From assembly GCF_042688385.1 (NCBI RefSeq), contig NZ_JBHUPY010000007.1:386110-416341 (forward strand): a stretch of 30,232 nucleotides of DNA, in the 5' to 3' direction. Under the pieces are notes generated by a model, which was given only the letters and a program-made list of their open reading frames with translations, made no database searches and was not told the DNA's origin. The translations under genes and the position numbers were made by a program. Below are positions 634-22,828 of the stretch, piece by piece. Position 1 is the stretch's first letter, and every line of letters starts with the position of its first letter. The stretch is from Herpetosiphon sp. NSE202 (GTDB lineage Bacteria; Chloroflexota; Chloroflexia; Chloroflexales; Herpetosiphonaceae).

Positions 634-1503
634 ATGGCAATGCGTGTGGGTATGTTATGTTCCCGAATTCGGGTTGAAGAAAAGCTGCTGATCAATGAAT
701 TTGAGCGGCGCAATGTCCAATTTGAACGAATTGACGATGATCAGACATGGTTTGATTTGAATGCTTTACAAGCTAATCGTCAAGTGCGCGCGCAATTTCC
801 TGATGTGATTATTGAGCGTTCGTTGCACCATGGTCGGGCCTTGTACACCCTCAAAACCTTGAACGATGCTGGCATTCCAACGGTCAACAATTATAACGTG
901 GCCTTGACCTGTGGCGATAAATTTTTGACGACCCAAGCCCTGTTGCGCAACGGCGTACCATCGCCGCGCTGTTTGCTGGCCTACACCCAAGAATCGGCGC
1001 TCGAAGCGATCGAAAGTTTGGGCTATCCGGTGGTGTTGAAGCCAGTTATTGGCTCGTGGGGTCGCTTGGTCTCGAAGATCAACGATCGCGAAGCAGCCGA
1101 AGCAGTGCTTGAACACCGCGACACCTTGGGCAATTATCAGCACGCAATTTTCTACATTCAAGAATATATCAACAAACCAGGTGGCCGCGATATTCGCGCT
1201 TTTGTGGTTGGTGATGAGTGCATCGCGGCGATTTATCGCACCAGCGGCCACTGGATCACCAATACTGCACGCGGCGGTGAGGCTTCCAATTGCCCAATTA
1301 CGCCAGCCTTGGCCGATATTTGCATCGGTGCGGCCAATGCGGTTGGTGGCGGCGTGGTTGCAATCGATGTTTTCGAAACAGCCGAAGGTCGCTATTTGGT
1401 CAACGAAGTTAATTACACCATGGAATTTCGCAACAGCATTAGCACAACTGGGGTGAACATTCCTGAACGCATTGTTGATTATGTGCTAGCTCAAGCGCAA
1501 TAG
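634..1503 (+). CDS. lysX: RimK-family ATP-grasp ligase LysX (alpha-aminoadipate--LysW ligase; alternatively the ArgX paralog)
   Basis: 289 aa. Shows the RimK/LysX pattern (IRVEEKLLI..., [22 protein letters not shown]-grasp core). Sits immediately after lysW and before lysY. Putative SD AAGGGA lies 6 nt upstream. Confidence 0.85.
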
Positions 1504-1533
1504 TTGGCGCGCTGTAGCCAAATTGAGGTTGTT

Positions 1534-2568
1534 ATGCTTTCAGTTTCGATCGTTGGTGGCTCTGGCTATGTCGGTGGTGAATTGCTGCGTTTATTGTTGG
1601 GGCATCCCCACGTCGAGGTGCGTCAGGTCACCAGCGAACGCTTAGCAGGCCAATATGTCTACAGCACCCACCCCAATTTGCGCGGGCGCAGCGAGTTGCG
1701 CTATAGCCCACAAAGCACGTTGGAGCCGTGTGATGTGTTAATTTTGGCCTTGCCGCATGGCTCTGCTGCCAAAAACATTGAGCATTATGCTGGCCTTGGC
1801 CAAGCAATCATCGATTGTTCAGCCGATTTCCGCTTGCGCGACCCAGAAGCCTATAGCCGTTGGTATGGAGAAAAACACCCAGCCCCGCACTGGCTTGAGC
1901 GCTTTGTCTATGGCTTACCGGAGCTGTATCGCGAGCAAATTCGCGCAACCCGCTATGTCAGCGGTGTGGGCTGTAATGCAACAGCGATTAACTTGGCCTT
2001 GTTGCCTTTAGTCAAGGCTGGATTAATTGATCAAACCAAGCCAGTGGTGGCTGAAGTCAAAGTTGGTTCGTCCGAGGCGGGCGCGGTTGCCAACGATGGC
2101 AGCCATCATGCCGAACGCTCAGGCGTGGTGCGCTCGTTTGCACCAGTCGGCCATCGCCACACCGCCGAAATTGTACAAGCGCATGGGCTTGAAAATGTGC
2201 ATATTTCGATCACGTCGGTGGAAATGGTGCGCGGTGCTTTAGCAACATGCCACGTTTTTACTCAAGGCTCAGTCAACGAACGCGATCTCTGGCGAGCCTA
2301 TCGGGCAGCCGCCGCCGAACAACCATTTTTGCGCATTGTTCATGATCGCACTGGCTTGCACCGCCATCCTGAGCCAAAAATCTTGGCTGGCAGCAATTAT
2401 GCCGATATTGGCTGGGCGCTCGATGAAACCACAGGCCGCGTAGTTGCGCTCTGCGCACTCGATAACTTGATGAAGGGTGCAGCCGGAGCCGCCATCCAAT
2501 GCTTGAATTTGATGCATGGCTTCGACGAAAGCGTAGGGCTTGAGTTTAGCGGCTTGCATCCGGTTTAA
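1534..2568 (+). CDS. lysY: [LysW]-aminoadipate 6-phosphate reductase LysY (ArgC-like)
   Basis: Rossmann N-terminus MLSVSIVGGSGYVGGELLRLL and catalytic Cys motif GCNATA, as in the ArgC/LysY family. The track ORF starts at 1504. ATG 1534 is preferred because GAGG lies 8 nt upstream and the Rossmann motif starts there. Confidence 0.8.
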   Translation: MLSVSIVGGSGYVGGELLRLLLGHPHVEVRQVTSERLAGQYVYSTHPNLRGRSELRYSPQSTLEPCDVLILALPHGSAAKNIEHYAGLGQAIIDCSADFRLRDPEAYSRWYGEKHPAPHWLERFVYGLPELYREQIRATRYVSGVGCNATAINLALLPLVKAGLIDQTKPVVAEVKVGSSEAGAVANDGSHHAERSGVVRSFAPVGHRHTAEIVQAHGLENVHISITSVEMVRGALATCHVFTQGSVNERDLWRAYRAAAAEQPFLRIVHDRTGLHRHPEPKILAGSNYADIGWALDETTGRVVALCALDNLMKGAAGAAIQCLNLMHGFDESVGLEFSGLHPV

Positions 2569-2862
2569 GAACATAGAACATAGAGCATAGAACATAGGGG
2601 TCGGGGGTCAGGGGCTGGGGATCGGTGGTCGGGGATCAGGGTTTCGAGGATACTAAGCTGGATTTTAACGCAGCGGCGCAGAGAGGGAGAATAATTATGA
2701 AGGATGAGAGATGAAGGGTGAAGGGATATGCTCTCCACATTGAGCTTGACGTGCTTCGTGCCCTTCGCGTGCTTCGTGGTTTCATTCTTGGGAATCTTTG
2801 CGTCCTTCGCGGTTCCTAGCCTTAGCGTGCTTCGTGCTCTTTGTGGATCAAAAAGGAACAAC
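2569..2862. repeat. Composite repeat insertion between lysY and lysZ. AACATAG x4 heptamers, then G-rich heptamers (GGGGTCGGGGGTCAGGGGCTGGGGATCGG...), then reverse-orientation CTTCGTG nonamer-type repeats.
   Basis: Direct reading. The same modules occur at 100-458, 12428-12781 and 29880-30232. The track lysZ ORF (2728..) has a spurious 45-aa N-terminal extension that translates these repeats. Confidence 0.8.
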
Positions 2863-3666
2863 ATGTTTGTGATAAAAATTGGCGGCGCGGCGGGCATTGA
2901 TTATAGCAATCTTTGCGCTGATATTGCCCAGCTTGCCGCCCAAGGCCAACCGATTGTGCTGTTTCATGGTGGTTCGGATGGAGCCAACACACTTGGCGAG
3001 CAACTTGGCCATCCGCCGCGCTTCATCACCTCGCCGTCGGGCCATACCAGCCGCCAAACTGATCGGCGCACGCTCGAAATTTTCATGATGGCGACAGCCT
3101 TGCTCAATCGCCAGCTGGTTGAGCACTTGCGGGGCTTGGGAGTCAACGCTTTCGGTTTATCGGGCCTCGATGGAGGCTTGCTGCAAGGCACCCGCAAAAC
3201 CAATGTTCGGGCGGTCGAAAACGGACGGGTGCGCGTGATTCGCGACGATTGGACAGGCAGCATCGACCAAGTTAATCGTGGATTATTGCAAATGTTGCTG
3301 AGCGCTGGCTATCTGCCAGTCATCGCACCATTGGCGGTCAGCGCTGCGGGCGAACCATTAAATATTGATGGAGATCGCGGCGCGGCCAGTGTGGCAGCTG
3401 CACTCGAAGCCGAAACCTTGTTGCTGCTAACCAATGTGAGTGGCTTATATCGTAATTTTCCCGACGAAAGCAGCTTAATCGCGCATTTGCCGCGCACAGA
3501 ATTAGCCCACGCCAGCGAAAAACTCGCCCAAGGCCGCATGAAGAAAAAATTGCTTGGAGCACAAACCGCGCTAGAGGCTGGCGTGCGCCGCGTGATTATC
3601 GGCGATGGCCGCAGCGAGCAACCAGTCAGCGCAGCGCTCGCAGGCAATGGAACAATCATCGAATAG
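2863..3666 (+). CDS. lysZ: [LysW]-aminoadipate kinase LysZ (ArgB-like amino-acid kinase)
   Basis: MFVIKIGGAAG... amino-acid-kinase N-terminus. SD AAAGGAA lies 6 nt upstream of ATG 2863. 267 aa. Confidence 0.8.
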   Translation: MFVIKIGGAAGIDYSNLCADIAQLAAQGQPIVLFHGGSDGANTLGEQLGHPPRFITSPSGHTSRQTDRRTLEIFMMATALLNRQLVEHLRGLGVNAFGLSGLDGGLLQGTRKTNVRAVENGRVRVIRDDWTGSIDQVNRGLLQMLLSAGYLPVIAPLAVSAAGEPLNIDGDRGAASVAAALEAETLLLLTNVSGLYRNFPDESSLIAHLPRTELAHASEKLAQGRMKKKLLGAQTALEAGVRRVIIGDGRSEQPVSAALAGNGTIIE

Positions 3667-3685
3667 GATTTGGCAGGAACAAACA

Positions 3686-4867
3686 ATGACTGAACAACAA
3701 CCTTTTGCCAGTTTGGAAGCTGCTCATAGCGCGGGCGTGTATGCCAAGCGCCCAATTACCTTGGTGCGCGGCAGCGGCGCAACCCTCTACGACGATCACG
3801 GTCTGGCCTATCTCGATTGTGGCTCAGGGATTGGGGTTGCCAACATTGGCCATTGCCATCCAACAGTGGTGCAGGCAATTGCCGAGCAAGTAGCAACCCT
3901 AACGGTTTGCCCAGAAGCCTTTCACAACGATCAACGCGCCTTGTTACAAGCCGAATTGGTGCAATTATTTCCTGCCGAATTTCAACGGGTATTTTTGTGC
4001 AATAGCGGCACCGAAGCCGTCGAAGCAGCCTTGAAATTTGCCCGCATGGCCACAGGCCGCACGGCAATCGTCGCAGCCATGCGAGGCTTTCATGGCCGTA
4101 CCTTTGGAGCCTTGAGCGCAACCTGGGAGAGCCATTATCGCGAGCCGTTTATGCCGCTCGTGCCCGATTTTAGTCATATTCCCTACAATAATATCGAGCG
4201 TTTGCAAAGCGCTATAACCGAACAAACCGCCGCCTTGATTATCGAAATTGTCCAAGGCGAAGGCGGAATTCGGCCTGCAACCGCCGAATTTTTGCAAGCA
4301 GCCCAAACAATTTGCCGCGAACGCGGAGCCTTGTTGATTCTCGATGAAGTGCAGACTGGCTTTGGCCGCACGGGGCGCATGTTTGCATTTGAACATGTTG
4401 GCTTGCAGCCTGATTTGGTCTGTTTGGCTAAGGCCTTGGGTGGCGGCATGCCAATGGGCGCGGTCGTGATCAACCAGCGAGTTGGCGAATTGGCGATTGG
4501 CACGCATGGCTCGACCTTTGGCGGCAATCCCTTGGCATGCGCGGCGGCGCGGGCTGCGCTCAGCGTGATTCGCACCGAACAATTGGTTGATCAAACTGCC
4601 GAAAAAGGTGCGTGGTTATTGGCTCAATTGCAAGCGATTCGTTCGCCCAGAATTCGCGAAGTGCGTGGCTTGGGCTTGATGATCGGCATTGAACTCAAGG
4701 AAAAAGTTGCGCCCTATCTGCAAAAATTAATGAACCAGCATCAGATTATTGCGCTGAATTCTGGCAGCAACGTGTTGCGCCTGCTCCCGCCGCTGGTCAT
4801 TTCGTGGCCAGAATTAGAACGCGTGGTGGCAACCCTGCGCAGCATGTTTGAGGAGCCAGCAGCATGA
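3686..4867 (+). CDS. lysJ: [LysW]-aminoadipate-semialdehyde/acetylornithine-type aminotransferase LysJ (class III PLP aminotransferase)
   Basis: Class-III aminotransferase motifs (GSGATLYDDHG, NSGTEAVEAALKFAR, DEVQTGFGRTG, the PLP-Lys region LAKALGGG). ATG 3686 has an AGGA SD. The track start 3605 would overlap lysZ by 60 nt. Confidence 0.8.
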   Translation: MTEQQPFASLEAAHSAGVYAKRPITLVRGSGATLYDDHGLAYLDCGSGIGVANIGHCHPTVVQAIAEQVATLTVCPEAFHNDQRALLQAELVQLFPAEFQRVFLCNSGTEAVEAALKFARMATGRTAIVAAMRGFHGRTFGALSATWESHYREPFMPLVPDFSHIPYNNIERLQSAITEQTAALIIEIVQGEGGIRPATAEFLQAAQTICRERGALLILDEVQTGFGRTGRMFAFEHVGLQPDLVCLAKALGGGMPMGAVVINQRVGELAIGTHGSTFGGNPLACAAARAALSVIRTEQLVDQTAEKGAWLLAQLQAIRSPRIREVRGLGLMIGIELKEKVAPYLQKLMNQHQIIALNSGSNVLRLLPPLVISWPELERVVATLRSMFEEPAA

Positions 4868-5919
4868 ACGATCAACAAGCTTTGCAATTAATTGAGGCCA
4901 TGGTGGCAACACCCAGCGTTTCTGGCGACGAGGCCGCGCTGGCCCAACTCTTGGTCGAGCAGATGCACCACGCTGGCTTTGATGCGCACGTTGATGCGGT
5001 TGGCAACGCAGTTGGGATGATTGGAGCTGCTGCTGAAACCGTCGTGCTGCTTGGGCATATGGATACTGTGCCAGGATATATTCCAGTTGAAGTGCGCGCT
5101 GGCGAGTTGTGGGGGCGCGGTTCAGTTGATGCCAAAGGCTCGTTAGCGACGTTTATTGCTGCTGCCGCCCGCGCTCATGCTGAGCAACGCTTGGCCTATC
5201 GGGTGATTGTGGTTGGCTGCGTCGAAGAAGAAATTGCATCATCCAGAGGTGCGCATTTTATAGCCCAAACCATGGCCGCGCCAACGTGGTGCATTGTCGG
5301 CGAGCCAAGCGGCGCAGACCGCCTAACCTTGGGCTACAAAGGCAATTTGCGGGCACAAATTCGCATCGACCAGGATGCAGCCCATTCGGCCCACGCCAGC
5401 CAGACCGCCGCCGAGCATGGCTGTGAATTGTGGAAAAGCATCGCCCAGCACGCCAATGAGTTTAACCAAGGCCGCGAGCGAGCCTTCGATCAGCTGCTAC
5501 CAAGCCTTGTGCGCATCGAATCTGGTGGCGATGGCCTGCGCGATTGGTGCGAGTTGCTGGTCAATGCCCGCTTGCCCTTGGATCTTGATCCGGCGGCCTA
5601 TACTGCGCTGCTGCAACAACTATTGCCCAATTATGCCCACTTGAACATTAGCGGCGCAACGCCTGCCTACAGTAGCGAGCGCACATCGAGCATAGCGCGG
5701 CGTTTTGGGCGAGTATTTCGCGCCAAAGGCCAGCAACCGCGCTATGTGCAAAAAACTGGCACCGCCGATATGAACGTGGTTGGGCCAGCCTGGGGTTGCC
5801 CTGTTGTTGCCTATGGCCCAGGCGATGCCGCGCTCGATCACACGCCACACGAGCGTTTGCCGTTGGCCGAGTATTTACAGGCGATTAACGTGTTGACCGC
5901 TGTCTTGAGCAACGAGTAA
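4864..5919 (+). CDS. lysK: [LysW]-lysine hydrolase LysK (ArgE/DapE-type M20 metallopeptidase)
   Basis: M20 motifs (HMDTV, GRGSVDAKG, EEE.SS.G). The start overlaps the lysJ stop in ATGA, which implies translational coupling. Confidence 0.75.
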   Translation: MNDQQALQLIEAMVATPSVSGDEAALAQLLVEQMHHAGFDAHVDAVGNAVGMIGAAAETVVLLGHMDTVPGYIPVEVRAGELWGRGSVDAKGSLATFIAAAARAHAEQRLAYRVIVVGCVEEEIASSRGAHFIAQTMAAPTWCIVGEPSGADRLTLGYKGNLRAQIRIDQDAAHSAHASQTAAEHGCELWKSIAQHANEFNQGRERAFDQLLPSLVRIESGGDGLRDWCELLVNARLPLDLDPAAYTALLQQLLPNYAHLNISGATPAYSSERTSSIARRFGRVFRAKGQQPRYVQKTGTADMNVVGPAWGCPVVAYGPGDAALDHTPHERLPLAEYLQAINVLTAVLSNE

Positions 5920-7105: not shown

Positions 7106-8203
7106 TTATGGCTCAAGCTCAATCTGCCAAATTGCCCCTTCATGCAACAGTAAAAACTCAGTCTGATTCAACGCCTGCAAATCAGTAACCAAGCGTGGTT
7201 GGCCAGCAGCATCATTAATTGGATAGACCTGGGTTGGCGACCAATAGACCAAACTATTGCTATCCAAGGCCCGCACCAAAACCCCATCGCGATACCACAC
7301 CAATGGCTCGACCCCCAAATTGGTGGCTTGAATCGAATTCAGGCTTGGCTCGTAGATCCGAAAATCATCGCCCAGATAATAGGCTAAGGCTCCGCGCTTG
7401 TTCCAGAGCATTCTAGGTATGCTCGTGCCACGCTGGCTTTGATCGAGCAGCTGAATTTGATTGGTTTGCAGATTATAGAGGTGTAACTCTAAAGCAGCTT
7501 GGTCGCGCACTTGCACCAACAAAGCCAGTTGATCGCGATTAGGGCTAAGTTGCAAGCCACCAGCTACCAACTGCCGCTGGGGCAGGCGAATAATCACTTG
7601 CTCTTTGCTCGTACCACCAACTTGCATAATCCGCAGGTCGTTATCACCCGCTGCATAATACAAGGCACTTTGGGTCATCAAGGCTGCTTGCACCAAGCCA
7701 TTGGTCGAAGTCAGCACGTGCAATGCTTGGCCACTAAATGGCTCGATCGCTTGCAGCAGATCAGGCTCCTGTTGCGAACGCCACAAAAGCAAAGCCCCAT
7801 CACTTGACCAACTCAGCGCTTGGCCTTGATAGCGACGACTAAGCTCGATAAAATTCAAACCTGGCGCATGCAATTCAAACTGATCTTGGCTAATCGATTG
7901 GGTAATGAGCCATTGTTGGCTTGGCGCAAGCGGGCCAAATTGAGCACGAATAACGCCATTCGCCGCCACCAACAATTGATCGCTAGGGCTAAGTGCAGTG
8001 GTCGCGCTGGCGGTTGGCTTGAGCAACGGCGTTACCGTCGCAGGATTGCTGCTCGGCGTTGGACGAGCGGTGGCCCGCACCACGAAGCTTGGCGTTGGCC
8101 GCAACTCCAAGGTCGGAATAACCACAGCGGTTGGTTGCTGCTGGGCCAAATCACACCCATACAACAGGCCAATTAGTACCAAAACAATATAGAATCGTTT
8201 CAT
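7106..8203 (-). CDS. Lipoprotein with Pro/Thr-rich linker and TolB-like beta-propeller repeats
   Basis: N-terminus MKRFYIVLVLIGLLYGCDL is a lipobox with Cys. A PT-rich low-complexity linker follows. The rest has repeated LSxDGxxLx motifs typical of WD40-like/TolB propellers. Confidence 0.6.
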   Translation of the reverse strand: MKRFYIVLVLIGLLYGCDLAQQQPTAVVIPTLELRPTPSFVVRATARPTPSSNPATVTPLLKPTASATTALSPSDQLLVAANGVIRAQFGPLAPSQQWLITQSISQDQFELHAPGLNFIELSRRYQGQALSWSSDGALLLWRSQQEPDLLQAIEPFSGQALHVLTSTNGLVQAALMTQSALYYAAGDNDLRIMQVGGTSKEQVIIRLPQRQLVAGGLQLSPNRDQLALLVQVRDQAALELHLYNLQTNQIQLLDQSQRGTSIPRMLWNKRGALAYYLGDDFRIYEPSLNSIQATNLGVEPLVWYRDGVLVRALDSNSLVYWSPTQVYPINDAAGQPRLVTDLQALNQTEFLLLHEGAIWQIELEP

Positions 8204-13747: not shown

Positions 13748-14006
13748 ATCAGCGAATCTCGAATATGCATTAATTAATAAGGATGGTGTTGCCAGCACTC
13801 AGGCCAATTGCAACCCTCGCATTGTACCAGAGAAAGCAAGTTCAAATATCCACAGCACAATCCTGACCAGCAAACCAATCAGCAGCTGGTCGCTTTGCCA
13901 ATTGAATCAAATGGGCTATCCAAAGCGAATATGGTACAATTGATCTATATGCAGCCCGTTGGCGCGTTCGCAAACGGCTGTTTTTTTAGGGCAAACACGA
14001 GAGTTT

Positions 14007-20382: not shown

Positions 20383-20586
20383 TTAAGCAGCGACCTTTTG
20401 TGATTCCCAAGGTAAATCGAGTGCTAAGCGTGAGGCAGTAACCAAGGCAGGCTTGAGCAAAAGCTTGGGACCATAGGCCATCCAAACACTTTCGTCGGTA
20501 ACACAGCGATACGATCCATCATCAACGAGTTCCAATCGAGCACCGCAATCGGGGCAGCGGCGTTCTTCGAGCGAACGATTTTCCAT
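20383..20586 (-). CDS. Small zinc-ribbon protein (67 aa)
   Basis: ATG 20586 with an AAGGAGG SD. MENRSLEERRCPDCGARLELVDDGSYRCVTDES... has a CPDCG...C motif. The track ORF (to 20697) extends upstream past this start with no support. Confidence 0.5.
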   Translation of the reverse strand: MENRSLEERRCPDCGARLELVDDGSYRCVTDESVWMAYGPKLLLKPALVTASRLALDLPWESQKVAA

Positions 20587-20788
20587 GACGGGCCTCCTTG
20601 TGTGGGTGGTGTGTCCGGAGTTGGCGGAATTAAAAAATCCCACCCCCCGGATAGAGGAGTAGGCGATCATTGCCCTGTCATATGGCCACGCTGCCATGTG
20701 TTAAGCTGTAGTATACATGGATTTGGCAAATTGACAATCGGGCTAGCGCAGTAGTTCTATGGCCAGCCTAGTGATGGAGGGTTTTGTA

Positions 20789-21586
20789 ATGTATTGTCTC
20801 CAGTGTCGCCAGCGGTTGGAGCCTCGCTTGCGCGGCGGGCGTGAACGCTTGAGCTGCCCTGATTGTGGCTGGGTCTGGTTTAATAGTGCACCAGCTGGGG
20901 TTGCTGCCGTCATCCAAAACGAGTTTGGTGAGGTCTTGCTGGTGCGGCGGGCTGGCTCGTTTCGGCCTGGCTTGTGGTGTTTGCCATGTGGCTACCTTGA
21001 GCACGATGAGGAAATGCGCCAAGGCCTCGCCCGCGAAGTGCTTGAAGAAACTGGCTTGCATGCAGAAATTGGCGAAGTTATCGCTGTGCATTCGAATCTT
21101 GATCGCGAGCCGCCGTATCCGCTCGGGGTTTGGTTGCGAGCCACGGTCAGCGGGGGCAATTTGCAAGCTGGCGGCGATGCAGATTTGGCCCAATTTTTTG
21201 CCCTTGAGCAACTGCCGCCATTGGCCTTCGATCACGATGCGTTGGTCTTGGCTCAATTGCAGCAGCCAAGCGATGCCAGCATCGCAACGTTAACCACAGA
21301 GATGCATGAGTTTGTGCGTTCGAAGGGTTGGTACGAGGCGAATTCAAAACGCCCGCAAACGCCACGCAATTTGGCTATTTCGCTGACCCTCGAAGCCGCC
21401 GAAGTGCTCGAACACCTGCAATGGCGCGACGAAATTGTTGATCAGGCTGAATGGCAGGGCGAGTTAGCCGATGTCTTGCTCTATTTGCTGCAATTGGCCG
21501 ATACTACCAACGTCAATTTGGTCGAAGCAGTGCGCGCCAAATTGCGCAAAAACGCTGATCGAGTGTGGGATCAACCAGCTCAGTAA
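20789..21586 (+). CDS. Zn-ribbon + NUDIX hydrolase + MazG-like NTP pyrophosphohydrolase fusion protein
   Basis: N-terminus CLQC...CPDCG is a NudC-type zinc ribbon. The Nudix box GYLEHDEEMRQGLAREVLEETGL matches GX5EX7REVXEEXGU. The C-terminal 100 aa are MazG-like (EAAEVLEHLQW...ELADVLLYLLQLAD). GGAGGG SD upstream of ATG 20789. Confidence 0.65.
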   Translation: MYCLQCRQRLEPRLRGGRERLSCPDCGWVWFNSAPAGVAAVIQNEFGEVLLVRRAGSFRPGLWCLPCGYLEHDEEMRQGLAREVLEETGLHAEIGEVIAVHSNLDREPPYPLGVWLRATVSGGNLQAGGDADLAQFFALEQLPPLAFDHDALVLAQLQQPSDASIATLTTEMHEFVRSKGWYEANSKRPQTPRNLAISLTLEAAEVLEHLQWRDEIVDQAEWQGELADVLLYLLQLADTTNVNLVEAVRAKLRKNADRVWDQPAQ

Positions 21587-21627
21587 GTGGCAAAAATGAG
21601 AGAATTAAAACTATTTAATGTCGTTGA

Positions 21628-21657
21628 TTGACAGCAAGCAGCAATATCCGCTATAGT
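21628..21657 (+). promoter_or_regulatory. Near-consensus sigma-70-type promoter (TTGACA, 18-bp spacer, TATAGT)
   Basis: TTGACA at 21628-21633 and TATAGT at 21652-21657, upstream of the small membrane-peptide gene. Confidence 0.5.
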
Positions 21658-21661
21658 TAAA

Positions 21662-21697
21662 CCAGAACTTGTGTTCTATCACAAATACAAGTTCTGG
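21662..21697 (+). promoter_or_regulatory. Perfect 11-bp inverted repeat (CCAGAACTTGT-N14-ACAAGTTCTGG) at the predicted transcription start. Candidate operator or 5'-UTR stem-loop.
   Basis: Direct reading. Lies between the -10 element and the AAGGAGG SD. Confidence 0.5.
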
Positions 21698-21715
21698 ATG
21701 AAGGAGGTATTGCGC

Positions 21716-21898
21716 ATGAGTCAGCAACCGGATCAACAACAACAAAATCGGCCATTGCGGCTGATGTTTATGCTTACAATGATGATAATGTGTATCACTG
21801 TGACGGTTTTGGTCGTGCTTGGGCGCGATGTTGCCCAGCTTGTGACCGTTGTGGCAGCTTTTGCAGCTTTAGGTGCATTGCTCTGGCCAAAACATTAA
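21716..21898 (+). CDS. Small hydrophobic membrane peptide (60 aa, two predicted TM helices)
   Basis: MSQQPDQQQQNRPLRLMFMLTMMIMCITVTVLVVLGRDVAQLVTVVAAFAALGALLWPKH. Perfect SD AAGGAGG 8 nt upstream. Track ORF 21671 starts inside the UTR hairpin. Confidence 0.6.
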   Translation: MSQQPDQQQQNRPLRLMFMLTMMIMCITVTVLVVLGRDVAQLVTVVAAFAALGALLWPKH

Positions 21899-21900
21899 CC

Positions 21901-21950
21901 AAACCTTGCTGTAAGGGTTACTCCTTACAGCAAGGTTTGTTGCTATTTTT
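21901..21950 (+). terminator. Strong rho-independent terminator
   Basis: AACCTTGCTGTAAGG-gttact-CCTTACAGCAAGGTT followed by TGTTGCTATTTTT. 15-bp perfect stem. Confidence 0.8.
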
Positions 21951-22104
21951 AACAATCTTGAGCCAATAATTCCAGTTTCAGCGCAATACCTGCTTTCAAT
22001 CCTGAGTCATGCGTGGTAAATTCACCCTTGGCAGTTACGAGCCAATTGCGTATACTCATACGACATTCCGCCAAACGCAACCTCTACCAAGAAAGGGTTT
22101 CCGC

Positions 22105-22776
22105 ATGAAGCCACGATTTTTTGCGCTTGGCAACCAACAACTGCATAGCGCTGCGCTGAAGCAGCATCCTGCAAGCCGCCGGATTATTGGCTGGATCAGC
22201 CTGTTTGTAGTTTGTTTGTTGCTCATTCTGTATAGTTTTAGTCAATTTGATCATATTCCGTTGAGCACGCTTACCCGCGACCCCGCCGATATTACGGGAG
22301 TGCCGTTCTATGTTGGCATTCTTTCAACCTTGGGTGTGATGCTCTGGTCGGCAGCAACTGGCATTTGTGCAGTTGGCTTGTTATTGCTTGAGCCGAGCCA
22401 TCCGCAGCGGCGTTTTTTAGCGGCCTCAGCACTCTTATCTGGTTTATTGACCCTTGATGATGCTATTTTACTCCACGAACGGGTGTTTCCGGTGCATCTG
22501 CATATTCCCGAAAATTTGGTGCTGGCCGGCTACTTGGGCCTAGGAATCGCCTATCTTTATTATTTTTTGCCACGAATGTTAAGCACAGATTATGGCTTGT
22601 TTCTGATTGCCGCTGGATTTATGGGCTTATCGATTGTTTTTGATGTGATTATGCCCTTTCATGAGCTAGCCACCTTTACCGAAGATAGCCTCAAGTTTAT
22701 TGGGATTGTCTTTTGGTTGAGCTATTTTGGGCGCACTGTCCAAAGCATTTTAGCTCACGCCAAGCACCAAAGCTAA
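22105..22776 (+). CDS. Hypothetical polytopic membrane protein (about 223 aa, 5-6 TM)
   Basis: ATG 22105 with an AAAGGG SD. Hydrophobic segments run throughout. I recognise no family. Confidence 0.5.
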   Translation: MKPRFFALGNQQLHSAALKQHPASRRIIGWISLFVVCLLLILYSFSQFDHIPLSTLTRDPADITGVPFYVGILSTLGVMLWSAATGICAVGLLLLEPSHPQRRFLAASALLSGLLTLDDAILLHERVFPVHLHIPENLVLAGYLGLGIAYLYYFLPRMLSTDYGLFLIAAGFMGLSIVFDVIMPFHELATFTEDSLKFIGIVFWLSYFGRTVQSILAHAKHQS

Positions 22777-22797
22777 CCCAACGCAATGCTTCTACTC

Positions 22798-22828
22798 AAA
22801 GCGCCGTGCTTCCAACGGCGCTTTTGCT
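22798..22828 (+). terminator. Hairpin terminator after the 22105 gene
   Basis: AAAGCGCCGT-gcttcca-ACGGCGCTTTTGCTTGG. Confidence 0.55.

What the first reader, a model, noticed from the sequence alone, without database searches (positions are those of the whole stretch)
21628..21950. Self-contained mini-cistron: consensus promoter, 5' perfect inverted repeat, perfect SD, 60-aa two-TM peptide, strong terminator
Everything about 21628-21950 is near-consensus. The promoter is TTGACA-18-TATAGT. An 11-bp perfect inverted repeat (CCAGAACTTGT-N14-ACAAGTTCTGG) sits at the predicted +1. The SD is AAGGAGG. The ORF encodes a 60-aa peptide with a polar Gln-rich N-terminus and two hydrophobic helices. A 15-bp-stem terminator follows. 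This compact layout is typical of type-I toxin-like membrane peptides, small stress-induced membrane proteins, or regulatory micro-proteins. The inverted repeat could be an operator for a regulator or a translation-occluding 5' stem. The machine ORF call (21671) wrongly starts inside the hairpin.
Basis: seen in the sequence. Interest (0 to 1): 0.5.

Follow-up and report, generated by a model that had tools for sequence, protein, structure and literature searches.

The report
Damage-box-controlled small membrane protein gene
This is a real, self-contained gene for a 60-residue membrane protein found only in Herpetosiphon, and its very strong promoter carries a textbook DNA-damage (LexA-type) repressor site at the transcription start, so it is probably a stress-induced small membrane protein rather than a proven toxin.

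Summary
The window comes from Herpetosiphon sp. NSE202 (Chloroflexota). The 60-aa ORF (21716-21898) is a real gene. Seven Herpetosiphon-lineage loci keep it at 58-60/60 identity, with variable columns 3/2/28 by codon position and dN/dS about 0.03. A 1-nt indel shows that the machine start at 21671 is wrong. The protein is an orphan: a full HMMER scan of 1.84 billion representatives found only its own cluster. The 120-nt promoter and leader are far more conserved (8/120 variable columns) than synonymous sites (28/59).

Two new points emerged. First, the left arm of the palindrome plus the start of the loop forms a perfect AGAAC-N4-GTTCT box, the Gram-positive/Chloroflexi LexA type, at +1 to +14. 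It is the only such box in the 30 kb. Second, a conserved element after the terminator (21978-22005, core GCAATACCT) is an inverted copy of the SD/start region.

Best reading: a repressor-controlled, probably SOS-inducible, small membrane protein. I could not verify LexA control in Herpetosiphon. A type I toxin-antitoxin reading is not supported: I found no antisense promoter and no known family. Interest is moderate.

The parts
21596..21627 (+). Invariant A/T-rich block upstream of the -35 hexamer. It may be an UP element or a further regulator site.
   Evidence: 1 variable column of 32 across six genomes, against 28/59 at third codon positions. The function is inferred.
21628..21657 (+). Sigma-70-type promoter TTGACA-18-TATAGT. 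The predicted +1 is about 21664.
   Evidence: 11/12 match. 0/30 columns vary among five species and 2/30 among six. The TSS is inferred, not measured.
21664..21677 (.). AGAACTTGTGTTCT, a perfect GAAC-N4-GTTC (Cheo/LexA-type) palindrome spanning about +1 to +14. Candidate repressor operator.
   Evidence: It is the only exact GAAC-N4-GTTC in the 30,232-bp window. It is invariant in all orthologous loci. The motif type is reported for Firmicutes and Actinobacteria, with variations of it in Chloroflexi (PMC4951493). An equivalent box lies inside a 12/12 promoter upstream of polA in an Anaerolineaceae MAG. Binding has not been tested.
21662..21697 (+). 5'-terminal stem-loop of the mRNA: 11-bp perfect DNA inverted repeat, 12-14 bp as RNA, 8-nt loop.
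   Evidence: dG -19.4 kcal/mol, z = -6.3. The 12 inner pairs are kept in 6/6 sequences, one by G-C to G-U. The two outer C-G pairs are broken in one sequence, and the loop centre varies.
21701..21707 (+). Shine-Dalgarno AAGGAGG, 8 nt (7 nt in three species) before the start codon.
   Evidence: Invariant. Unpaired in the leader fold.
21716..21898 (+). CDS for the 60-aa protein MSQQPDQQQQNRPLRLMFMLTMMIMCITVTVLVVLGRDVAQLVTVVAAFAALGALLWPKH.
   Evidence: Orthologs are 58-60/60 identical. Variable columns by codon position are 3/2/28, and dN/dS is about 0.01-0.05. Start is ATG or GTG in all. Hydrophobic segments are 16-35 and 39-57. AlphaFold2 predicts helix 12-55 at pLDDT 78.
21900..21950 (+). Intrinsic terminator: a 17-18-bp stem, then UUGCUAUUUUU. 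The hairpin is symmetrical and also folds on the minus strand.
   Evidence: Pairing is kept through one compensatory A-U to G-C change and several wobble changes, with a variable loop.
21978..22005 (+). Conserved inverted copy of the SD/start region 21693-21719 (core GCAATACCT 21983-21991). On the + strand RNA it is an anti-SD sequence specific for this gene.
   Evidence: Local alignment score 27, reached by 1 of 500 shuffles. Predicted duplex is -32 to -37 kcal/mol against -22 +/- 3.5 for shuffles in five species. The core is invariant in all seven lineages, in a region where 24/40 neighbouring columns vary. These are the only two exact GCAATACCT copies in the window. In a read-through transcript the MFE fold pairs it with 21696-21715.

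Best explanation
The region is a real monocistronic gene. It encodes a 60-residue inner-membrane protein restricted to the Herpetosiphon lineage. The protein has a polar Gln-rich cytoplasmic N-terminus and two hydrophobic helices joined by G-R-D.

Proposed mechanism:
1. A near-consensus sigma-70 promoter with a conserved A/T-rich upstream block would drive very high transcription.
2. A repressor bound to the palindrome over +1 keeps it off. The most likely repressor is LexA, because AGAACTTGTGTTCT is a perfect Gram-positive/Chloroflexi-type SOS box.
3. On derepression by DNA damage, the transcript starts directly with a stable 12-14-bp stem-loop. That position suggests protection of the 5' end rather than occlusion of the SD.
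4. The mRNA is translated efficiently from a consensus SD and ends at a strong terminator.
5. Transcripts that read through the terminator acquire a conserved anti-SD sequence that can fold back on the ribosome-binding site and silence the small ORF.
6. The protein would act in the membrane during the damage response, either as a division inhibitor or as a membrane-active peptide, like other SOS-induced small membrane proteins.

Shown: the gene is real and under purifying selection, all cis elements are present and conserved, and the protein is an orphan. Inferred: the TSS, LexA binding, SOS induction, the role of the 5' stem, the fold-back silencing and the protein's activity.
For: - Coding signature and conservation.
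- Wrong machine start.
- Promoter scores 11/12.
- 5' region has 8/120 variable columns against 28/59 third codon positions and 24/40 in the post-terminator spacer.
- Exact GAAC-N4-GTTC occurs once in 30 kb, at +1 (expected 0.23 per window). In 200 kb of H. aurantiacus plasmid pHAU01 there are three exact boxes. All lie inside CDSs, and none has the AGAAC...GTTCT form.
- GAAC-N4-GTTC is the LexA motif of Firmicutes and Actinobacteria, and variations of it are reported for Chloroflexi (PMC4951493, citing Fernandez de Henestrosa 2002).
- An independent Chloroflexota example: AGAACATGTGTTCT lies inside a 12/12 TTGACA-17-TATAAT promoter about 205 nt upstream of polA in an Anaerolineaceae MAG (L007).
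- SOS-induced small membrane proteins with no mutual homology are a recurrent class, e.g. SosA, YneA, SidA (PMC6851548; PMC4211646 and PMC13396833).
- The 5' stem is stable and leaves the SD free. Its pairs are kept, including one G-C to G-U change outside the box.
- Anti-SD element. It is retained in H. geysericola even though the neighbouring 223-aa gene is deleted there.
Against: - The LexA motif of Herpetosiphon itself could not be checked.
- No lexA lies next to the gene, although the characterised Gram-positive SOS division inhibitors are commonly co-localised with lexA (PMC6851548). No LexA or S24 domain was found among the window ORFs scanned.
- recN in the same window has only a 1-mismatch box 165 nt upstream.
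- The box is part of a longer RNA-forming palindrome, and the whole 120-nt leader is invariant. Conservation of the box alone therefore does not discriminate between readings.
- I noticed the box post hoc.
- The anti-SD element lies after a strong terminator, so it only acts if read-through or a separate transcript exists.
- AlphaFold2 in single-sequence mode gave one continuous helix rather than a hairpin.
Confidence: 0.4

Rival explanations
1. Ordinary, highly expressed small membrane protein with no LexA control. The palindrome acts only as a 5'-terminal RNA stem-loop that stabilises the mRNA, and the GAAC-N4-GTTC match is a by-product of the stem sequence. The protein would be a constitutive or generally stress-related membrane component.
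For: The stem is very stable and begins at the predicted +1. Its pairs are kept, with one G-C to G-U change that preserves RNA pairing but not the DNA palindrome. Centre-to-centre spacing of the 11-bp arms is 25 bp, which is awkward for a dimeric DNA-binding protein (sequence). 18 of 100 shuffles of the window contain at least one exact GAAC-N4-GTTC.
Against: A stem alone does not need the loop to begin with GTTCT, which actually creates a competing pairing. The box falls exactly over +1 of the strongest promoter in the region. Invariance also covers the promoter spacer and 32 nt upstream of the -35, which an RNA element cannot explain.
Confidence: 0.28
2. The palindrome is the operator of a regulator other than LexA, encoded elsewhere in the genome. 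The gene then responds to a different signal, such as envelope or oxidative stress.
For: Perfect 11-bp arms at +1. The promoter region is extremely conserved. No regulator gene is nearby, so the regulator must act in trans.
Against: Neither the 9-mer arm nor the promoter recurs in the window or in 200 kb of H. aurantiacus plasmid, so no regulon is visible. The only known consensus matched exactly is the LexA box. Rex and CRP-like readings of TTGTG-N6-CACAA have the wrong spacing (my comparison from memory of those consensus sequences).
Confidence: 0.15
3. Type I toxin-antitoxin-like module. The peptide is a membrane toxin, and the conserved downstream element is the 5' end of a same-strand small RNA (candidate promoter TTGCTA-19-AATAAT, 21940-21970) that pairs with the toxin's SD/start region in trans.
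For: A small hydrophobic peptide with very strong expression signals. There is 20-27 nt of conserved complementarity to the translation initiation region. A 9/12 promoter-like site would start transcription at about 21977, exactly where the complementarity begins. LexA control is known for tisB and dinQ (established knowledge).
Against: The candidate promoter has a 19-20-nt spacer and is not conserved in the MAG L005 or H. aurantiacus lineages. No terminator defines a small RNA before the next gene's promoter. No minus-strand promoter exists. 60 aa with two helices is at the large end for type I toxins. No family match exists. H. aurantiacus tolerates a 1,955-bp IS between gene and element.
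Confidence: 0.12
4. The two inverted copies (21693-21719 and 21978-22005) are recombination sites of an invertible (phase-variable) segment that carries the ORF and a bidirectional terminator.
For: 9-11-bp perfect inverted cores flank about 270 bp, a geometry like the fim switch (my recollection of that system). The terminator hairpin folds equally well on both strands.
Against: All nine loci examined have the same orientation. No recombinase gene lies nearby. The repeats are imperfect and differ between species outside the core.
Confidence: 0.03

Closest known systems
SOS-induced small membrane cell-division inhibitors (YneA of B. subtilis, SosA of S. aureus, ChiZ, DivS, SidA of Caulobacter)
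   Same: A small membrane protein. The gene sits behind a promoter carrying a LexA-type box. The sequence is lineage-restricted, with no homology between clades (PMC6851548).
   Different: Those proteins have a single TM segment, several have a LysM domain, and the Gram-positive ones are commonly co-localised with lexA (sosA is divergently transcribed from it). Here there are two hydrophobic helices, no extracellular domain and no lexA in 30 kb. Function and induction are untested.
LexA-controlled type I toxins TisB/IstR-1 and DinQ/AgrB of E. coli
   Same: A LexA box at the promoter of a very small hydrophobic membrane peptide. A nearby sequence is complementary to the 5' untranslated or initiation region (established knowledge).
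   Different: TisB and DinQ are 27-29 aa with one helix. Their antitoxin RNAs are defined transcripts encoded divergently upstream. Here the complementary element lies downstream on the same strand, after the terminator, without a convincing promoter.
Fold-back or long-distance 5'-3' pairing that keeps toxin mRNAs inert (hok fbi element, aapA1 of H. pylori)
   Same: A 3' sequence complementary to the translation initiation region of a small membrane peptide mRNA. In the predicted fold of a read-through transcript it closes the whole mRNA and sequesters the SD.
   Different: In hok and aapA1 the element lies inside the primary transcript (established knowledge). Here it lies 30-60 nt beyond a strong intrinsic terminator, so it would affect only read-through RNA.
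Pmp3/YqaE (UPF0057) stress-induced two-TM proteolipids
   Same: About 55-60 aa with two hydrophobic helices and a short turn.
   Different: No Pfam match at E <= 0.01, so it is not a member by sequence.

Membership tests
LexA (SOS) regulon | LexA operator of the clade's type (GAAC-N4-GTTC) overlapping the promoter or TSS | tested here: met
   AGAACTTGTGTTCT at 21664-21677, 7 nt after the -10 hexamer. It is the only exact match in the window.
LexA (SOS) regulon | The same motif is present at lexA, recA and uvr promoters of the same organism | not testable with these tools
The LexA homolog search listed only Bacillus. Indirect support comes from a box inside a perfect promoter upstream of polA in another Chloroflexota genome and from the literature.
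LexA (SOS) regulon | LexA binding and induction by DNA damage | not testable with these tools
   Needs EMSA and RNA-seq or qPCR after mitomycin C or UV.
Gram-positive-type SOS division inhibitors (YneA/SosA/ChiZ) | Gene chromosomally co-localised with lexA (divergently transcribed from it in the sosA case) | tested here: not met
   Neighbours are a NUDIX-MazG fusion and a 223-aa membrane protein. No LexA or S24 domain was found among the window ORFs scanned.
Gram-positive-type SOS division inhibitors (YneA/SosA/ChiZ) | Single N-terminal TM segment with an extracellular C-terminal part (LysM in some) | tested here: not met
   Two hydrophobic segments, a 3-residue turn and a 3-residue C-terminal tail. 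No Pfam domain.
Type I toxin-antitoxin system | Small hydrophobic membrane peptide | tested here: met
   60 aa, with hydrophobic segments at 16-35 and 39-57.
Type I toxin-antitoxin system | A separately transcribed antisense or partly complementary RNA with its own promoter and terminator | tested here: inconclusive
   Conserved complementarity exists. There is no minus-strand promoter of 8/12 or better, and only a weak, poorly conserved + strand candidate at 21940-21970. No small-RNA terminator was found.
Type I toxin-antitoxin system | Match to a described toxin or antitoxin family | tested here: not met
   Rfam at gathering and E-value thresholds gave only spurious miRNA-hairpin hits. Pfam, NCBIfam and PADLOC gave none.
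Type I toxin-antitoxin system | Toxicity on overexpression | not testable with these tools
   Needs an expression experiment.
Pmp3/UPF0057 proteolipids | Match to PF01679 | tested here: not met
   No Pfam family at E <= 0.01.
Invertible promoter/gene switches | Both orientations observed, and an associated recombinase | tested here: not met
   Nine loci are all in one orientation. No recombinase was found among the window ORFs scanned.

The most novel reading that the evidence does not exclude
A DNA-damage-controlled membrane peptide module in filamentous Chloroflexota. LexA gates a consensus promoter. The terminated short transcript is the translatable form. A conserved post-terminator anti-SD element, acting in read-through RNA or as a same-strand small RNA, silences the peptide. 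This would be a type-I-toxin-like or checkpoint circuit with an architecture not described elsewhere, in a phylum where I am aware of no such system (my knowledge; not searched systematically).
Probability: 0.12. Interest if true: 0.6.

Novelty: new member of a known kind. Interest (0 to 1): 0.4.

Why it matters
If the LexA reading holds, this would give the Herpetosiphon lineage a candidate SOS effector that acts at the membrane. I am not aware of a DNA-damage checkpoint or division-inhibitor protein described for these filamentous, gliding, predatory Chloroflexota, and such proteins cannot be found by homology because each clade has invented its own. The conserved anti-SD copy beyond the terminator would add an unusual way of coupling termination to translatability. 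If the LexA reading fails, the locus is still a clean example of a genus-specific, strongly selected micro-protein gene whose start codon automatic annotation gets wrong in some genomes.

Tried and rejected
- **Known families.** Pfam, NCBIfam, PADLOC, PHROGs and PDB sequence searches of the peptide gave nothing usable. The two PHROGs hits at E about 0.04 are families of unknown function and I ignored them.
- **Remote homologs.** The word-index search found two clusters, both Herpetosiphon. A full HMMER scan of 1.84 billion representatives found only the protein's own cluster. JGI metagenome and IMG/VR scans found none.
- **Rfam.** Nothing at gathering threshold. At the E-value threshold there were only miRNA-precursor models matching the terminator hairpin, which are spurious.
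- **Validating the LexA motif in Herpetosiphon.**
  - A B. subtilis LexA query returned only Bacillus among the 120 rows listed.
  - tblastn on plasmids was uninformative.
  - 200 kb of pHAU01 held only intragenic chance boxes.
  - Literature searches for Herpetosiphon or Chloroflexus LexA found nothing specific, and the 2002 Dehalococcoides paper is not held.
  - Look-ups meant to extend the window failed on inexact protein starts.
- **Small ORF as partner of the downstream 223-aa membrane protein.** Rejected. Homologs at 40-50% identity in other taxa have no small ORF upstream, and H. geysericola has lost that gene but kept the small one.
- **Synteny beyond the genus.** None; L006-L008 have different neighbours.
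- **Rex or CRP-type reading of the inner palindrome TTGTG-N6-CACAA.** Rejected because the spacing is wrong (my comparison from memory).
- **Antisense RNA from the minus strand.** No promoter-like site was found.
- **Two-helix hairpin by AlphaFold2.** Single-sequence mode gave one long helix, so the topology rests on hydropathy alone.

Full report
**Source and context.** The window is from Herpetosiphon, a genus of filamentous gliding Chloroflexota. The protein encoded just downstream of the finding is 100% identical to a hypothetical protein of Herpetosiphon sp. NSE202. The closest species-level locus is H. giganteus DSM 589, at 97.7% nucleotide identity over 21587-22110.

The neighbouring genes are:
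- Upstream, a Zn-ribbon/NUDIX/MazG-like fusion (20759-21586).
- Downstream, a 223-aa membrane protein with no family assignment. Its real start is 22105, behind its own promoter TTGGCA-17-TATACT at 22028-22056.
- About 6 kb upstream, recN.
- No regulator gene was found among the window ORFs scanned.

The sequence reads TTGACA (21628-33), an 18-nt spacer, TATAGT (21652-57). The arms CCAGAACTTGT (21662-72) and ACAAGTTCTGG (21687-97) are separated by 14 nt. AAGGAGG lies at 21701-07, ATG at 21716 and TAA at 21896-98. A hairpin at 21900-21939 is followed by a U-rich tail.

- The terminator stem is 17-18 bp, not 15.
- As RNA the 5' stem extends to 14 bp (dG -19.4 kcal/mol; z = -6.3). The terminator folds at -29.1 kcal/mol (z = -7.8).

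**The ORF is a real gene and the 21716 start is right.** I recovered the orthologous locus from H. giganteus, H. llansteffanensis, H. geysericola, H. aurantiacus, an uncultured relative (L005), a Logan assembly (L020) and two ENA contigs.
- Among the six sequences compared (the window plus L001-L005), the peptides are 58-60/60 identical.
- Variable columns fall 3/2/28 on codon positions 1/2/3.
- Pairwise dN/dS is about 0.01-0.05, while dS reaches 0.87.
- The start codon is ATG in some genomes and GTG in others.
- In three genomes a 1-nt deletion between SD and start puts both upstream in-frame candidates (GTG 21671 and ATG 21698) out of frame.

**The protein.** Residues 1-15 are polar (six Gln, two Arg next to the first hydrophobic stretch). 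Residues 16-35 and 39-57 are hydrophobic, separated by G-R-D, and the C-terminus is P-K-H. This suggests an N-in/C-in helical hairpin. AlphaFold2 without an alignment gave a single helix 12-55 (pLDDT 78), so the hairpin topology is inferred from hydropathy alone.

The protein is an orphan:
- No Pfam, NCBIfam, PADLOC or PDB match, and only two PHROGs matches at E about 0.04 to families of unknown function, which I disregarded.
- Only its own cluster in 1.84 billion representatives.
- Nothing in JGI metagenomes or IMG/VR.

**The leader is under stronger constraint than the coding sequence.**

| Region | Variable columns |
|---|---|
| 21597-21715 (promoter and leader, six genomes) | 8 of 120 |
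| Third codon positions of the ORF | 28 of 59 |
| Post-terminator spacer (five genomes) | 24 of 40 |

. The invariant stretch includes 32 nt upstream of the -35 hexamer and, in five genomes, the whole promoter spacer. An RNA element alone cannot explain that. It points to dense protein-DNA contacts.

**New point 1: a LexA-type box.** The left arm of the palindrome plus the first five loop bases read AGAAC-TTGT-GTTCT (21664-21677). This is a perfect GAAC-N4-GTTC palindrome, placed from about +1 to +14.
- That is the LexA operator of Firmicutes and Actinobacteria, and variations of it are reported for Chloroflexi (PMC4951493, citing the Dehalococcoides study).
- It is the only exact match in the 30-kb window (expected 0.23).
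- In 200 kb of H. aurantiacus plasmid DNA the three exact matches are all inside coding regions, and none has the flanking A and T.
- By chance, one of the fetched loci supplies an independent Chloroflexota example. In an Anaerolineaceae MAG, AGAACATGTGTTCT sits in the spacer/-10 region of a 12/12 TTGACA-17-TATAAT promoter, about 205 nt upstream of polA.

The box is invariant in every ortholog. The one substitution seen in the right arm (C to T in L020) keeps RNA pairing as G-U and lies outside the box. The outermost two C-G pairs, which would lie at or before the TSS, are not conserved.

I could not test whether Herpetosiphon LexA uses this motif. The relevant promoters were out of reach of the capped tools.

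**New point 2: an anti-SD copy beyond the terminator.** Positions 21978-22005 are an imperfect inverted copy of 21693-21719, which covers the end of the stem, the SD, the spacer and the start codon.
- The local alignment score was reached by 1 of 500 shuffles.
- The core GCAATACCT, complementary to AGGTATTGC in the SD-start spacer, is invariant in all seven lineages, although the surrounding intergenic DNA is poorly conserved.
- Those are the only two exact copies in the window.
- Predicted duplexes are -32 to -37 kcal/mol against -22 +/- 3.5 for shuffles in the five genomes with collinear sequence.
- In a read-through transcript the minimum-energy fold pairs the element with 21696-21715 and closes the mRNA.

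Because the copies are inverted, only a + strand RNA carries the complement. That RNA could be terminator read-through or a same-strand RNA. A candidate promoter, TTGCTA-19-AATAAT at 21940-21970, would start transcription right at the element, but it is weak and not conserved in two lineages.

The element is probably tied to the small gene rather than to the 223-aa gene. H. geysericola has deleted the 223-aa gene but keeps the element, and distant homologs of the 223-aa protein have no small ORF upstream.

**Mechanism proposed.** A very strong promoter is held off by a repressor at +1, most likely LexA. On induction the mRNA begins with a protective 5' stem-loop and has a free consensus SD, and it ends at the terminator. 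Longer transcripts are translationally silenced by fold-back. The product would act in the membrane during the damage response.

My confidence in the separate claims is:

| Claim | Confidence |
|---|---|
| The gene is real | about 0.95 |
| Some repressor acts at the palindrome | about 0.55 |
| That repressor is LexA | about 0.4 |
| RNA-level role for the anti-SD element | about 0.35 |
| Type I toxin-antitoxin module | about 0.12 |

**Comparison with known systems.** The best functional analogies are the SOS-induced small membrane proteins. One group is the division inhibitors YneA, SosA, ChiZ and SidA, which are mutually non-homologous (PMC6851548). The other is the LexA-controlled toxins TisB and DinQ.

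This gene is not a member of any of those families. It has two helices rather than one, no lexA next to it, no LysM domain and no sequence match. The fold-back idea resembles hok fbi and aapA1, but here the element lies outside the terminated transcript. Pmp3/UPF0057 is excluded by sequence.

**Verdict.** The interpretation as a regulated small membrane protein is reasonable. The type I toxin label is not supported. The LexA-box and post-terminator anti-SD findings make it a moderately interesting, directly testable lead, not a surprise. It is a new member of a known kind.

Noticed in passing
L004 7156-9110 (H. aurantiacus DSM 785); also L013 and L014: A 1,955-bp insertion sequence sits in the loop of the small gene's terminator. 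It encodes a 578-aa transposase on the minus strand, has terminal inverted repeats GACACTGTGCCACATCATGC..., and is flanked by an 8-bp target duplication GGTTGCAC. It splits the hairpin and moves the anti-SD element 2 kb away. Two ENA metagenome contigs show a minus-strand gene about 100 nt after the small gene, consistent with the same arrangement. The close relative L020 has the intact terminator.
   Followed up: partly
L003 about 7285-7345 (H. geysericola), equivalent to window about 22062-22800: The 223-aa membrane-protein gene downstream of the small gene is deleted in H. geysericola. Its degenerate promoter is left joined directly to that gene's terminator, while the small gene and the anti-SD element are intact.
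   Followed up: partly
L007 12072-12100 (minus strand), Anaerolineaceae MAG: A perfect 12/12 TTGACA-17-TATAAT promoter has AGAACATGTGTTCT in its spacer/-10 region. It lies about 205 nt upstream of polA, and the leader contains a 15-bp hairpin (AAGGGTATTCGTTCC...GGAACGAATACCCTT). It looks like a LexA-controlled polA, or a small transcript.
   Followed up: partly
window 13952-13987: The recN gene (start 14008; TIGR00634) has a terminator-like hairpin followed by T7 in its leader (CAGCCCGTT...AACGGCTG TTTTTTT). This may be an attenuator. Only a 1-mismatch LexA-like box (AGAAAGCAAGTTCA, 13831-13844) lies upstream.
   Followed up: no
window 22009-22104: The mechanical ORF start at 22009 for the downstream gene is probably wrong. 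A conserved promoter (22028-22056) lies inside it, and NCBI and homologs give a 223-231-aa protein starting MKPRFF at 22105.
   Followed up: partly
window 20759-20788: The NUDIX-MazG fusion ORF probably starts at the third Met (MYCLQC..., 20789). Four of the five Herpetosiphon-lineage orthologs match only from residue 4-5 onward, and the H. aurantiacus ORF begins MYCLHC.
   Followed up: no
window 634-5919: A LysX/ArgX-type amino-group-carrier biosynthesis cluster: a RimK-like ATP-grasp with LysX pre-ATP-grasp domain, a semialdehyde dehydrogenase, an amino-acid kinase, a class III aminotransferase and an M20 peptidase. A weak LysW-like zinc-ribbon match occurs far away at 20383-20697 (minus strand).
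   Followed up: no
window 21541-21553, 21709-21715, 21981-21987: The near-palindromic heptamer ATTGCGC/GCGCAAT occurs three times within 450 nt: at the 3' end of the NUDIX gene, in the SD-start spacer, and in the downstream element. It may be coincidence or a shared protein-binding half-site.
   Followed up: no
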